Of a stretch of DNA of 64,000 nucleotides, positions 61,162 through 64,000 are shown one piece after another. The notes beneath the pieces are model-generated. The model was not told where the DNA came from. It saw only the letters and a program-made list of their open reading frames with translations, and searched no databases. How positions within the stretch are numbered: position 1 is the stretch's first letter; the number at the start of each line of letters is the position of its first letter. This stretch comes from Escherichia coli (GTDB lineage Bacteria; Pseudomonadota; Gammaproteobacteria; Enterobacterales; Enterobacteriaceae): the NCBI RefSeq assembly GCF_044324875.1, contig NZ_CP172185.1, one strand, 5' to 3'. Both the position numbers and the translations under genes were made by a program.

Positions 61162-62643
61162 CTACGCTAACCCCAGGCGCTGAAACTGCTCTGGCGGCGC
61201 ATCATTATCTTTCATTAACTGGATCAGCAACGCGATCATCCGGGCCTCGATCGCATCATCATCAATAGGATGCAACTGCTGCGGATCGTTTTGCAGATCG
61301 AACAGCAAATGCCCAAACTGATTCAGCCCCTTATATTTCTCCTGCGCCGGGATGCGTAACACCTGTAACCCTTTGGTAAAACGAAACGGAGGGGCCAGCG
61401 ATAAAGTCCGCATCTCATCCACCGGATAGCGGCTGTTCATTTTAATCGGCATTAATGTGTAGTTAACAATATCATCCTCACGACCCGGCAGCGCGGCACG
61501 CATATACACATAACGCCCATCGGTTACGTTGACATGACCACTAAAGACACCAAACATCGCCGCGCTGCGTACCGGTTCATCGTGGCTGACCGTTTTCGCA
61601 AGTGGTTGCCCCTGCACATCGGGCGGCACCGGCTGCTGAAAAAAGTCATACAGCGTAGGTGCCCAGTCGATCATCTGCACCAACGCCTGACGACGTTCGC
61701 CTTTTACGCCGCTGCGCGGATCCCAGATAAACAGCGGGTTATTCGCTACCTCGTTGTAATAAGGCATCTGGTTTTTCGCCCACCAGCCATGCTCACCGAG
61801 TAAAAAACCGTGATCGGTGCCGACAATCAGCATGGTGTCTCGCCACAGATCGTGCTCATCCATCAGGTCCAGAATGCGCCCCAGGTTGCGATCGCACATC
61901 GACACCAGCGAGCGATAGCGGCAGCGGATATGCTCCACGGCCTCGTCGCTTTCCAGCACCCGACCACGCGGCCAGTCATAATGCGGCCCGCTCCAGTCAT
62001 CCTCATACAACGAAAGGTACTCTTGCGTTGTGTGAAACGGCTCGTGCGGATCAAACGTTTCGACCTGCAATAACCAGTTATCTTCCGCGTGATTTTTGTG
62101 GATAAAAGCACAACCCGCATCAAAGACTTTGGTTTGTGGAAAATCCGCTTCCTGCTGAATATATTCCCGGTTGGCCCAGTCATGACGCCACAGGCCAGAA
62201 ACACCGCCGCCGGTCTGCTTTTGTGGCACCCTTAGCACCTCGGGAATAGGCGGTTGCGCAACGCTCGCCTGCCAGTGATCGCCTTCCTGGCCGCGCACAA
62301 TCTCCCATGAACTGTAGCGATTATGATAATTCCCGCCGCCATCTTCCCAGTAATGCAAATGATCGCTTATCAGGTGGGTATAGATCCCCGCCTTTTTAAG
62401 CAGCTCCGGCATGGAGTCGTCAAACGGTTCTAACGGCCCCCACTCCCGGTGCAGGAAGTTGCATCGCCCGGTATGCAGCTCTCGCCGGGCGGGCATGCAG
62501 GGCATACTCCCGACGTAGCTGTTTTCAAAGGTGGCGGCATGTGCCGCCAGGCGTTGGAAGTTCTCTGCTTTTGTCAATAAATCGCCATACGGGGGTAAAT
62601 ATCTTTTGTTCAGGCTATCGAACAGGAGAATAATGGCTTTCAT
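61162..62643 (-). CDS. Cys-type sulfatase-family protein, no signal peptide (493 aa)
   Basis: Sulfatase signature C-M-P-A-R-R-E-L-H-T-G-R (CxPxRxxxLTGR) near the N-terminus; N-terminus MKAIILLFDS lacks a signal sequence. Confidence 0.7.
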   Translation of the reverse strand: MKAIILLFDSLNKRYLPPYGDLLTKAENFQRLAAHAATFENSYVGSMPCMPARRELHTGRCNFLHREWGPLEPFDDSMPELLKKAGIYTHLISDHLHYWEDGGGNYHNRYSSWEIVRGQEGDHWQASVAQPPIPEVLRVPQKQTGGGVSGLWRHDWANREYIQQEADFPQTKVFDAGCAFIHKNHAEDNWLLQVETFDPHEPFHTTQEYLSLYEDDWSGPHYDWPRGRVLESDEAVEHIRCRYRSLVSMCDRNLGRILDLMDEHDLWRDTMLIVGTDHGFLLGEHGWWAKNQMPYYNEVANNPLFIWDPRSGVKGERRQALVQMIDWAPTLYDFFQQPVPPDVQGQPLAKTVSHDEPVRSAAMFGVFSGHVNVTDGRYVYMRAALPGREDDIVNYTLMPIKMNSRYPVDEMRTLSLAPPFRFTKGLQVLRIPAQEKYKGLNQFGHLLFDLQNDPQQLHPIDDDAIEARMIALLIQLMKDNDAPPEQFQRLGLA

Positions 62644-62655
62644 TGCTCATCCCTT

Positions 62656-62976
62656 TTATTTATTTAGCAGATGAGGGAAATGCTGCTGGACGACTTCATA
62701 AATCTGCGCGCCAATCGTTTCACCATCCATAATATTTTCAATCGGAATCAGATATTGCCCGTGTTTTGGGTCCAGGCTGACCACGTCGAGTAATTTTTTG
62801 GAAATAGCAAAAATATCCGCCCAATCGGTAAAGCCTCCCACCTCGCCTGCGGCGGTATGTTCCATTTCAACTTTGAACTCATATTTCGTCAGCGCTTTTT
62901 TAACAACCGTTTGTAACATCACGCTACTACCGACACCATAACCACAGACAAACAAAATATTAATTGTATCTTTCAT
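62656..62976 (-). CDS. PTS EIIB component, L-ascorbate (UlaB/SgaB) family
   Basis: 106 aa with N-terminal ILFVCGYGVGSS phosphocysteine loop typical of this IIB family. Confidence 0.7.
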   Translation of the reverse strand: MKDTINILFVCGYGVGSSVMLQTVVKKALTKYEFKVEMEHTAAGEVGGFTDWADIFAISKKLLDVVSLDPKHGQYLIPIENIMDGETIGAQIYEVVQQHFPHLLNK

Positions 62977-62997
62977 TTTTAAACCCTTAATAGTGAA

Positions 62998-64000
62998 TTA
63001 TCCCGCGTAAGGACCAAGATGGAATGTTGCAGCGATAAATTTCAGAACTTCACAAATAGCAGGCCATACGGTTGCCCAGTCAAATATTCCTGTCCAGCCG
63101 ACGCCATTTTCAGCAAGCCCGGTTAAAGGAATAGCCCACACCGTACCGAAGGTCTGAATAATACCCAGCAAGAAGGTACAGATAATTACGGAGCGGTATC
63201 CGCCCATTCGGTTTGCTAATACACCAATCGGGCCGCCTGAGAAAAATAAAGGTACAAAGCCTGGCAATACCATAATGGGGCTGTGGATCAGCAATAAGAT
63301 ACCCATCGAGAAAATGGTGCCAAAAGTACAGAAGACAAAACCTAACGTTGCGGCATTGGGTGAAAAAGGCAACAGTGCGGCGACATCGACGGCGGGAATG
63401 GCGTTAGGAATAAAGCGATCCTGCCAGCCTTTAAAAGAACCGTTAATTTCACCGACCATCATGCGCACGCCCTGCAACAGAATGACCATGTACATGGAGA
63501 ACTGTAAGCCCAGATTGATGATATAGATGTACCAGGGTTTACCTTTCGCCATCATCTGGACGTTATCAATGCCCGTGGAGAGCAGGAAACCGCCCACAAA
63601 CAGCGTCATCACAATGGCGATAGCCGTCACGTTGTGGTTAAAAATCGCCAGCCAGCCGGGAAGTTTCAGATTTTCAGCATCGTGCTTTTCCGGGTCGCCA
63701 AATTTATGGGCGAATTTGGAGAAAAACCACAATCCCAACATCTGGTTATGGGCAATAGTAAAACCAGCATCTTTAGTCACTTTGGCGATAGGTTTAACAA
63801 TGAGCGTGGTGGAAAAAGCCCAGAATATACCCGTTAATACCCCGGCGATAATAATCGACGTGGTCCAACTAAATCCTAACCAAAAAACAATTAACCATAA
63901 TACGGCCTGCGAATGTGACACCCCAGTATTACCGGTCAGGAATATCCCTTTGGCACCGGTATAGCGACCAAACAGTACCAGTAACAGGTTGGTAAAAAAT
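62998..64000 (-). CDS. PTS EIIC component, L-ascorbate (UlaA/SgaT) family; 5' end lies beyond the window
   Basis: Polytopic membrane protein; reading frame stays open upstream of the annotated GTG to the window edge (…FFTNLLLVLFGRYTGAKGIFLTGNTGV…). Confidence 0.65.
   Translation of the reverse strand, partial: FFTNLLLVLFGRYTGAKGIFLTGNTGVSHSQAVLWLIVFWLGFSWTTSIIIAGVLTGIFWAFSTTLIVKPIAKVTKDAGFTIAHNQMLGLWFFSKFAHKFGDPEKHDAENLKLPGWLAIFNHNVTAIAIVMTLFVGGFLLSTGIDNVQMMAKGKPWYIYIINLGLQFSMYMVILLQGVRMMVGEINGSFKGWQDRFIPNAIPAVDVAALLPFSPNAATLGFVFCTFGTIFSMGILLLIHSPIMVLPGFVPLFFSGGPIGVLANRMGGYRSVIICTFLLGIIQTFGTVWAIPLTGLAENGVGWTGIFDWATVWPAICEVLKFIAATFHLGPYAG

What the first reader, a model, noticed from the sequence alone, without database searches (positions are those of the whole stretch)
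61162..64000. Non-core module: signal-peptide-less Cys-type sulfatase with ascorbate-family PTS IIB/IIC
Downstream of artJ, where I expect rlmC from my recollection of the K-12 layout, there is instead an operon of PTS EIIC, EIIB (CGYGVGSS loop) and a 493-aa protein with a perfect CxPxRxxxLTGR formylglycine sulfatase signature but no secretion signal. A cytoplasmic sulfatase coupled to a PTS implies uptake and phosphorylation of a sulfated sugar or sugar acid, then intracellular desulfation. That is an uncommon route, and Cys-type sulfatases also need a maturation enzyme not seen in the window.
Basis: partly seen in the sequence, partly recalled or inferred. Interest (0 to 1): 0.55.

Follow-up and report, generated by a model that had tools for sequence, protein, structure and literature searches.

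The report
PTS-linked cytoplasmic sulfatase, likely ascorbate sulfate
About one in ten E. coli strains carries a three-gene unit between artJ and rlmC (an ascorbate-type sugar importer plus an intracellular sulfatase); related genomes suggest it lets the cell take up sulfated vitamin C, strip the sulfate inside the cell and burn the rest through the ordinary vitamin C pathway, which no experiment has yet tested.

Summary
Window 61162-64000 (minus strand) encodes a 493-aa S1 sulfatase with no signal peptide, whose motif reads CMPARRELHTGR rather than ...LTGR. It also encodes a 106-aa PTS IIB (CGYGVGSS) and an L-ascorbate-family IIC that the window end cuts (447 aa in full). rlmC is not replaced; it lies 280 bp past the IIC gene. 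The unit is exactly three genes, with no IIA, regulator or maturase. It occurs in 566 of 5,426 complete E. coli genomes, always on the chromosome, and at the same site in Salmonella arizonae. It is under strong purifying selection (dN/dS 0.009-0.05).

The IIC-IIB-sulfatase trio recurs in 19 distinct Firmicute/Actinobacterial loci. Two proteins fuse the sulfatase to a IIA domain. Seven loci carry a formylglycine maturase (anSME or FGE), and six carry a ChrA/TauE anion exporter. Six place the trio among ulaG/D/E/F ascorbate-6-phosphate catabolic genes.

The leading substrate is therefore L-ascorbate 2-sulfate, with UlaC, the Ula enzymes and a maturase supplied from elsewhere in the E. coli genome. 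The substrate is inferred, not shown. I found no paper on this locus.

The parts
61162..62643 (-). 493-aa cytoplasmic S1 (formylglycine-type) sulfatase with no signal peptide
   Evidence: ORF. Pfam PF00884 E 1.7e-27 plus SGSH_C. The AF2 model (pLDDT 89.3) matches only S1 sulfatases, TM 0.6-0.7 at 14-19% identity. RefSeq annotates it 'sulfatase' WP_000644038.1. dN/dS is 0.05 between the two E. coli allele classes.
62464..62499 (-). Formylglycine motif C49-M-P-A-R-R-E-L-H-T-G-R
   Evidence: Read from the sequence and the translation. C49, P51 and R53 are invariant in 40 homologues. The full block is invariant in 20 close homologues.
62656..62976 (-). 106-aa PTS enzyme IIB with active-site loop C12-GYGVGSS
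   Evidence: The best NCBIfam matches are ascorbate IIB models, below their cut-offs. It is 28% identical to UlaB, with Cys12 aligned to UlaB Cys9. It lies 12 nt upstream of the sulfatase start codon.
62998..64000 (-). PTS enzyme IIC of the L-ascorbate family, C-terminal 333 of 447 codons; the gene start lies beyond the window end
   Evidence: NCBIfam NF009550 scores 724 bits against a cut-off of 583, while the UlaA model NF006919 scores 255 against a cut-off of 380. Full length is seen in L001 13899-15242. It is 38% identical to E. coli UlaA.
61122..61149 (.). 11-bp perfect GC-rich hairpin between the convergent artJ and sulfatase genes; probably a two-way transcript end, though it lacks a T-tract
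   Evidence: RNA fold of 61112-61161 (-) gives -26.8 kcal/mol, z -6.9, with 0 of 200 shuffles as stable. The simple terminator scan did not call it because there is no T run.

Best explanation
The three genes form an accessory uptake-and-desulfation unit that plugs into the core L-ascorbate (Ula) pathway.

1. The IIC permease, with its IIB phosphoryl carrier, imports and phosphorylates a sulfated ascorbate-type compound. The most likely substrate is L-ascorbate 2-sulfate, a normal metabolite of human plasma and urine.
2. The phosphoryl group comes from a IIA encoded elsewhere, most likely UlaC.
3. The cytoplasmic sulfatase removes the sulfate. Its Cys49 must first be converted to formylglycine by a maturase encoded elsewhere (AslB, YdeM or the unidentified E. 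coli activity).
4. The product, L-ascorbate 6-phosphate, is then degraded by UlaG, UlaD, UlaE and UlaF.

Shown here: gene content, family membership, the invariant catalytic motif, the conserved trio, the fusion with IIA, co-location with maturases, anion exporters and ula genes in relatives, and purifying selection in E. coli.

Inferred: the substrate identity, the order of phosphorylation and desulfation, and which IIA and which maturase serve the unit in E. coli.
For: Conserved IIC-IIB-sulfatase string in 19 distinct non-enterobacterial loci, plus E. coli, an Escherichia cryptic clade, Salmonella arizonae and Enterobacter.

Sulfatase-IIA fusions P0042 and P0073; the IIA part is 32% identical to UlaC and keeps the active-site His.

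The trio sits among ula catabolic genes in 6 of 19 loci. One example is the Neobacillus niacini string IIA-IIC-IIB-sulfatase-UlaG-IIB'-UlaD-UlaE-UlaF. There UlaG scores 653 bits (cut-off 306), UlaD 327 (250), UlaE 437 (200) and UlaF 362 (257), and the trio's IIC is the only IIC in the operon.

anSME or FGE lies next to the trio in 7 of 19 loci, and a ChrA/TauE anion exporter in 6 of 19.

The IIC keeps UlaA ligand and mechanism residues Y87, H194, D314, F362, R288, G58 and G286. Another set is changed to smaller residues throughout the clade: H135N, I136T/A/S, Q139S/A, Q195N, S59G. The UlaA-type H-(I/V)-Q...Q set persists in family representatives down to about 31% identity (residue list from PMC6048161).

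ulaABC is in 5,424 of 5,426 and aslB in 5,425 of 5,426 E. coli genomes.

dN/dS is 0.05, 0.03 and 0.009 for sulfatase, IIB and IIC between allele classes with dS 0.43-0.82.

Ascorbic acid 2-sulfate is routinely reported in human plasma and urine metabolomics.
Against: No experiment bears on the substrate.

Thirteen of 19 PTS-linked loci have no ula gene within 10 kb.

The region upstream of the E. coli IIC gene resembles the UlaR-controlled ulaG-ulaA intergenic region no more than chance allows (91 of 500 shuffles scored as well). Its conserved palindrome is absent from the ula region.

The DeoR regulators next to the trio in relatives are not specifically UlaR-like.

Relatives of the sulfatase at 54-59% identity sit next to ABC sugar importers, a GH3-like gene and other sulfatases, with no ula genes. 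The family as a whole therefore is not tied to ascorbate.

The canonical sulfate-binding Lys of the 'GKxH' motif is not evident; the family has an invariant S-D94-H95-L-H97.

The closest solved structures are only 14-19% identical, so the structure gives no clue to specificity.
Confidence: 0.5

Rival explanations
1. The mechanism is the same (PTS uptake, then cytoplasmic desulfation), but the substrate is a different sulfated carbohydrate or sugar acid. Examples would be a sulfated hexose, hexuronate or lactone from host glycans or plants. On this view, neighbouring ula genes reflect the clustering of L-Asc-family PTS genes rather than a shared pathway.
For: Thirteen of 19 PTS-linked loci show no ula gene nearby. 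The closest sequence and fold matches among solved structures include carbohydrate 6-O-sulfatases of family S1_11, though only weakly. ABC-linked relatives at 54-59% identity sit with a GH3-like gene and sugar-binding proteins. The IIC ligand pocket differs from UlaA at five positions. There is no UlaR-type operator signal.
Against: In Neobacillus, Bacillus sp. SD088 and a Clostridium MAG, the trio's IIC is the only IIC in an operon that otherwise encodes just the ascorbate-6-phosphate route. The product of desulfation must therefore be a UlaG substrate in those organisms. Half of the UlaA ligand residues are retained.
Confidence: 0.3
2. The unit is cryptic in E. coli. Without its own IIA, regulator and maturase it is not expressed or not active, and it is a leftover on its way to loss.
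For: No IIA, regulator or maturase lies in the locus. It is absent from about 90% of complete E. coli genomes. No sigma-70 consensus promoter was found upstream. One genome has an IS1 insertion in the unit (H25).
Against: All 566 genomes keep at least 80% of the unit. dN/dS of 0.009-0.05 across deeply diverged alleles (dS 0.43-0.82) shows long-term selection on all three proteins. UlaC and AslB are available in essentially every E. coli.
Confidence: 0.08
3. The 'sulfatase' hydrolyses something other than a sulfate ester. It could be a phosphate or phosphonate ester, for example ascorbate 2-phosphate, as seen for promiscuous alkaline-phosphatase-superfamily enzymes such as phosphonate monoester hydrolases.
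For: Phosphonate monoester hydrolases and the Silicibacter SpAS enzymes are among the best PDB matches. The usual sulfate-binding Lys position appears to hold Asp or His.
Against: ChrA- and TauE-family anion exporters next to the trio in 6 of 19 loci point to a sulfur oxyanion being released in the cytoplasm. All other catalytic positions fit S1 sulfatases.
Confidence: 0.07

Closest known systems
E. coli L-ascorbate PTS and Ula pathway (UlaABC, UlaG, UlaDEF, UlaR)
   Same: The IIC belongs to the same L-Asc family: 38% identity to UlaA, with G58, G286, R288, D314, H194, Y87 and F362 kept. The IIB has the same Cys loop. IIA genes next to the trio in relatives are UlaC-like (41% identity). In six relatives the trio sits in one gene string with UlaG/D/E/F.
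   Different: It is not UlaA or UlaB: the scores fall below the NCBIfam equivalog cut-offs. Five ligand-pocket positions are changed to smaller residues. A sulfatase is inserted between uptake and the lactonase step. The E. coli locus has no IIA and no UlaR-like operator signal.
Formylglycine-dependent S1 sulfatases that act in the cytoplasm (e.g. choline-O-sulfatase BetC; the putative E. coli sulfatase YidJ)
   Same: The fold, the Cys-type CxPxR motif, the metal-ligand Asp and the D-H pair are shared, and there is no signal peptide. Choline sulfatases align over residues 4-411.
   Different: Identity to any solved sulfatase is only 14-19%. The enzyme is coupled to a PTS rather than to an ABC or secondary transporter. 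The K-x-H motif is replaced by an invariant S-D-H-L-H.
Pneumococcal lactose-type PTS operon with a sulfatase, a sulfatase-modifying enzyme and a TauE exporter (SPH1922-1929; PMC3302838)
   Same: The logic is the same at the level of gene content: PTS permease, cytoplasmic sulfatase, maturase and anion exporter. The substrate is likewise unknown.
   Different: The PTS family differs (Lac type, not L-Asc). I did not compare the sulfatase sequences. That operon has no link to ascorbate catabolic genes.
Sulfatase gene noted inside the duplicated ula regulon of Sebaldella termitidis (PMC3219644)
   Same: A sulfatase sits among ula genes, as in six of the loci examined here.
   Different: That paper treated it as an unrelated insertion and proposed no function. 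I did not check whether it belongs to this sulfatase family.

Membership tests
S1 formylglycine-dependent sulfatases (Pfam PF00884) | Alkaline-phosphatase-like sulfatase fold | tested here: met
   PF00884 E 1.7e-27 over residues 4-334. The AF2 model (pLDDT 89.3, pTM 0.92) matches only S1 sulfatases and PMHs at probability 1.0, TM 0.6-0.7.
S1 formylglycine-dependent sulfatases (Pfam PF00884) | C/S-x-P-x-R motif carrying the residue that is converted to formylglycine | tested here: met
   C49-M-P-A-R53. C49, P51 and R53 are invariant in 40 homologues across phyla.
S1 formylglycine-dependent sulfatases (Pfam PF00884) | Metal-binding acidic residues and the D-H/N pair | tested here: met
   D9, D277-H278 and H200 are invariant, and K290 is nearly so. 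They fall at the positions aligned to those motifs in PDB sulfatases. This rests on sequence alignment only.
S1 formylglycine-dependent sulfatases (Pfam PF00884) | Sulfate-binding Lys plus catalytic His of the 'GKxH' motif | tested here: inconclusive
   The family has an invariant S93-D94-H95-L96-H97. HMMER aligns D94 to the Lys, while a one-residue shift would put H95 there.
S1 formylglycine-dependent sulfatases (Pfam PF00884) | Formylglycine actually present, and sulfate ester hydrolysis | not testable with these tools
   Indirect only: anSME (TIGR03942, 388 bits against a cut-off of 349) or FGE (PF03781) lies beside the trio in 7 of 19 relatives.
PTS L-ascorbate family enzyme IIC (PF03611; TC 4.A.7) | IIC family profile match and the conserved mechanistic residues of UlaA | tested here: met
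   NF009550 scores 724 bits against a cut-off of 583. G58, G286, R288, D314 and H194 are conserved.
UlaA/UlaB proper (ascorbate-specific IIC and IIB) | Score above the equivalog cut-off and the full ascorbate ligand set | tested here: not met
   The UlaA model scores 255 against a cut-off of 380, and the UlaB model 43 against 138. H135, I136, Q139, Q195 and S59 are replaced.
Complete sugar-specific PTS enzyme II complex | IIA, IIB and IIC encoded together | tested here: not met
   The E. coli, Salmonella and Enterobacter loci have no IIA. Most relatives do, separate or fused. UlaC is encoded elsewhere in 5,424 of 5,426 E. coli genomes.
Horizontally acquired genomic island | Atypical composition, mobility genes, and a tRNA or repeat-flanked insertion site | tested here: not met
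   GC is 54% (sulfatase), 41% (IIB) and 47% (IIC) against 50.5% for the window. No integrase or IS is annotated in the locus and no copy is on a plasmid. The same site is occupied in Salmonella arizonae and an Escherichia cryptic clade. Divergence extends into artJ and rlmC. The best description is an old variable locus that moves by loss and by homologous recombination.
UlaR regulon | An operator shared with the ulaG-ulaA control region | tested here: inconclusive
   The local alignment score is no better than shuffles (91 of 500). The conserved palindrome is absent from the ula region. I did not have the published UlaR operator sequence to test directly.

The most novel reading that the evidence does not exclude
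This is the first bacterial route for using sulfated vitamin C. A dedicated L-Asc-family PTS takes up L-ascorbate 2-sulfate, and a cytoplasmic formylglycine sulfatase converts the phosphorylated product to ascorbate 6-phosphate. The route is widespread in gut Firmicutes and present in about 10% of E. coli, including O157:H7 and urinary isolates. It would give those strains access to a host-excreted compound. It would also supply a native cytoplasmic Cys-type sulfatase substrate with which to identify E. coli's still unknown formylglycine-forming activity.
Probability: 0.4. Interest if true: 0.65.

Novelty: new variant of a known kind. Interest (0 to 1): 0.5.

Why it matters
If the inference holds, three things follow.

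1. A host metabolite seen routinely in human plasma and urine (ascorbic acid 2-sulfate) gains a microbial sink and a genetic marker.
2. It would explain a strain-variable locus shared by O157:H7, extraintestinal E. coli, Salmonella arizonae, Enterobacter and many gut Firmicutes.
3. It offers a natural, selectable assay (growth on the sulfated compound) for the long-suspected third formylglycine-forming system of E. coli.

If the substrate proves to be something else, the conserved PTS-sulfatase-maturase-exporter layout remains a defined, testable unit of unknown specificity.

Tried and rejected
1. Shared regulation with the ula operon. Local alignment of the 280-bp region upstream of the IIC gene against the ulaG-ulaA intergenic region was no better than shuffles. 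The AATCAyAAATAATC resemblance I saw by eye is therefore treated as chance.

2. The conserved palindrome TGATCGATCG...CGATCGATCA upstream of IIC was searched in all loci, the window and the ula region, with no further copies beyond chance. It lies about 55 nt after the rlmC stop codon. It may simply be the rlmC transcript-end hairpin.

3. The DeoR regulators next to the trio were tested for UlaR identity. They score as generic DeoR/GlpR/AgaR-like proteins, which is not informative.

4. Rfam found no RNA family in the locus at E up to 0.1.

5. Promoter and terminator scans gave nothing above shuffle expectation.

6. Literature searches covered sulfatase+PTS+artJ, 'cytoplasmic sulfatase'+PTS, O157 locus tags and ascorbate sulfate terms. 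None turned up a functional study of this locus. From the Sakai paper, artJ is ECs0943, so the unit should be ECs0940-0942, which I inferred and did not verify.

7. The idea of a recent island insertion was rejected on composition, the absence of mobility genes and the shared site in Salmonella.

8. K-12 retains no remnant of the unit: homology breaks within a few bases of artJ and near the end of rlmC.

9. Structure comparison did not narrow the substrate class, because all solved relatives are at most 19% identical.
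Full report
WHAT IS THERE

On the minus strand of window 61162-64000 lie three tightly spaced genes:
- A 493-aa protein at 61162-62643.
- A 106-aa protein at 62656-62976, 12 nt upstream of it.
- A third gene whose stop codon is at 62998 and which runs off the window end.

The window matches Escherichia coli strain 118UI with one mismatch in 2,901 bp. In that genome the third gene is 447 codons long. It is followed, 280 bp further on, by rlmC, ybjO and potIHGF.

The three genes are inserted between artJ and rlmC rather than replacing rlmC. 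Nothing else belongs to the unit: no IIA, no regulator and no sulfatase maturase.

An 11-bp GC-rich hairpin (61122-61149; -26.8 kcal/mol, z -6.9) separates the convergent artJ and sulfatase genes.

THE THREE PROTEINS

The 493-aa protein is an S1-type sulfatase.
- Pfam Sulfatase scores E 1.7e-27 over residues 4-334.
- An AlphaFold model (pLDDT 89.3, pTM 0.92) matches only sulfatases and phosphonate monoester hydrolases, at TM 0.6-0.7 but just 14-19% identity.
- The metal-ligand Asp is residue 9, and the ORF cannot be extended upstream, so there is no room for a signal peptide.

The 106-aa protein is a PTS IIB with the loop C12-GYGVGSS. It is 28% identical to UlaB, and the two active-site cysteines align.

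The third protein is an L-ascorbate-family IIC. NCBIfam NF009550 scores 724 bits against a cut-off of 583. It is not UlaA itself: it is 38% identical to UlaA, and the UlaA model scores 255 against a cut-off of 380.

DISTRIBUTION IN E. COLI AND ITS RELATIVES

The unit is in 566 of 5,426 complete E. coli genomes, always chromosomal. It comes in two allele classes: 146 genomes at 99% identity or more to the window, and 411 at about 90.5%, the latter including O157:H7.

Between the classes dS is 0.43-0.82, while dN/dS is 0.05 (sulfatase), 0.03 (IIB) and 0.009 (IIC). All three proteins have therefore been kept under selection for a long time.

The elevated divergence spills into artJ (91.9% identity) and rlmC (95.6%). 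Genes further out are 97-99% identical.

K-12 has a 198-bp REP-containing spacer at the site and no remnant of the unit.

The same three genes occupy the same site in Salmonella enterica subsp. arizonae and in an Escherichia cryptic-clade genome. They sit at a different site in Enterobacter hormaechei.

GC content is unremarkable: 54, 41 and 47% for the three genes against 50.5% for the window. No mobility gene is present.

I therefore read this as an old variable locus that is lost in many lineages and exchanged by homologous recombination, not as a recently inserted island.

WHAT RELATIVES SAY ABOUT FUNCTION

The sulfatase family is unusually well conserved.
- It is 62-69% identical to proteins of Clostridia, Lachnospiraceae, Bacillus and Neobacillus.
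- It is still 54-59% identical in Paenibacillus, Actinobacteria, Chloroflexi, Planctomycetes and Lokiarchaeota MAGs. At least 594 species genomes have a relative.
- The SMPCxPARRExHTGR block is invariant in 20 close homologues.
- C49, P51, R53, D9, H95, H97, H200 and D277-H278 are invariant in 40 homologues, none of which has a signal peptide.

I clustered the ORFs of 92 loci. The family splits by context. Proteins at least 61% identical to the window protein are preceded by IIC and IIB. Those at 54-59% sit next to ABC sugar importers, a GH3-like gene, two-component regulators and other sulfatases.

Counting distinct non-enterobacterial loci with the IIC-IIB-sulfatase string gives 19. Among these:
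- Most have a UlaC-like IIA, and two proteins fuse that IIA domain to the C-terminus of the sulfatase.
- Seven have a formylglycine maturase beside the trio. Five have an anaerobic sulfatase maturase; the one tested scores TIGR03942 388 bits against a cut-off of 349. Two aerobic Bacillaceae loci have an FGE-type protein.
- Six have a ChrA- or TauE-family anion exporter next to the sulfatase.
- Six have the trio within a string of ascorbate-6-phosphate catabolic genes.

The clearest case is Neobacillus niacini: IIA-IIC-IIB-sulfatase-UlaG-IIB'-UlaD-UlaE-UlaF, with a divergent FGE gene. UlaG scores 653 bits against a cut-off of 306. No other IIC is present in that operon.

Taken together, the fusion, the maturases and the exporters argue that this is a working formylglycine sulfatase that acts in the cytoplasm on the PTS cargo and releases a sulfur oxyanion there. 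The ula neighbours argue that, at least in those organisms, the desulfated product is L-ascorbate 6-phosphate. That makes a sulfated ascorbate the cargo.

The 6-hydroxyl is needed for PTS phosphorylation. The naturally occurring ester is the 2-sulfate, so L-ascorbate 2-sulfate is the obvious candidate. It is reported routinely in human plasma and urine metabolomics.

THE PERMEASE POCKET

I used the ascorbate-contact residues of E. coli UlaA listed in PMC6048161.

The trio's IIC proteins keep Y87, H194, D314, F362, R288, G58 and G286. They consistently replace H135, I136, Q139, Q195 and S59 with N, T/A/S, S/A, N and G.

I also examined full-length representatives of the whole IIC family taken from the listed hits of a search of 1.84 billion proteins. 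The UlaA-type H-(I/V)-Q...Q set persists down to about 31% identity. The small-residue set appears only in the trio's clade.

This fits a related ligand with an extra substituent. I could not locate the changed residues relative to ascorbate O2, so it remains suggestive only.

HOW IT WOULD WORK IN E. COLI

The missing parts are available elsewhere in the genome. ulaABC is in 5,424 of 5,426 genomes and aslB in 5,425 of 5,426. UlaC is 41% identical to the IIA of the Neobacillus operon.

The literature also notes a third, unidentified formylglycine-forming activity in E. coli (PMC8379841, citing Benjdia et al. 2007).

Which IIA and which maturase actually serve the unit is inference.

WHAT DOES NOT FIT, OR IS UNRESOLVED

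- Thirteen of the 19 loci show no ula gene within 10 kb.
- I found no operator shared with the ula control region.
- No sigma-70 consensus promoter lies upstream.
- The neighbouring DeoR regulators are not specifically UlaR-like.
- The usual K-x-H sulfate-binding motif is replaced by an invariant S-D-H-L-H whose residue roles I could not assign.
- The ABC-linked relatives show that the wider family is not restricted to ascorbate.

PRIOR KNOWLEDGE

RefSeq already names the genes 'sulfatase', 'PTS sugar transporter subunit IIB' and 'IIC'. I found no functional study of the locus.

Two papers touch the theme in passing. One lists a pneumococcal Lac-type PTS operon with a sulfatase, a maturase and a TauE exporter (PMC3302838). 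The other notes a sulfatase 'inserted' in the ula regulon of Sebaldella termitidis without interpreting it (PMC3219644).

VERDICT

It is a new variant built from known kinds of parts. It is of moderate interest, and simple growth and enzyme assays would test it directly.

Noticed in passing
window 54136-55938 (-): A 600-aa ORF with 32.6% GC (window 50.5%) lies between ybjQ and ybjP, where K-12 has nothing comparable. Strain 118UI annotates a shorter pentapeptide-repeat pseudogene at this position. The only NCBIfam hit is a weak local match (23 bits) to the anti-phage Hailong effector HalA. It looks like a separately acquired foreign gene.
   Followed up: partly
L001 15436-15467 (outside the window, about 55 nt after the rlmC stop and upstream of the IIC gene): A 14-bp-stem palindrome, TGATCGATCG...CGATCGATCA. 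Its arms are conserved in Salmonella while its loop has diverged. It is absent from the Enterobacter locus and from the ula control region. It may be the rlmC transcript-end hairpin or an operator for an unknown regulator; this is undecided.
   Followed up: partly
L027 6290-7327; L025 12457-13512; L019 4140-5147: A conserved 345-aa protein with no NCBIfam match sits next to the sulfatase or between UlaF and UlaE in three Clostridial loci. Two of these loci (L027, L025) carry ula genes but no detectable UlaD. It may be a non-orthologous replacement for the decarboxylase step.
   Followed up: partly
L001 versus L095 (window 60380-64000 and flanks): The two E. coli allele classes of the unit differ at dS 0.43-0.82, and the divergence extends into artJ (dS 0.40) and rlmC (dS 0.19). 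That points to an old recombination block that includes the flanking core genes.
   Followed up: partly
window 62353-62367 (-), sulfatase residues 93-97: The canonical sulfatase 'GKxH' motif reads S-D-H-L-H and is invariant in 40 homologues. The sulfate-binding Lys seems to be replaced by Asp or His.
   Followed up: partly
L035, L040, L070 and other loci: Relatives of this cytoplasmic sulfatase at 54-59% identity occur in Lokiarchaeota, Planctomycetota and Chloroflexi MAGs, often beside ABC sugar importers and further sulfatases. That is unusually high conservation across domains.
   Followed up: no
L010 5466-6881 (-), Enterobacter hormaechei: An arylsulfotransferase-family gene (PF05935) is divergently adjacent to the trio in Enterobacter. 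Any functional link is unknown.
   Followed up: no
L024 4692-7908 and L020 11687-13467: A second, distinct IIC'-IIB' pair lies next to the trio in two Firmicute loci. Its IIC has K at the UlaA Q139 position. In Bacillus sp. FJAT-50079 the pair has its own 463-aa sulfatase, which suggests a second PTS-coupled sulfated substrate.
   Followed up: no
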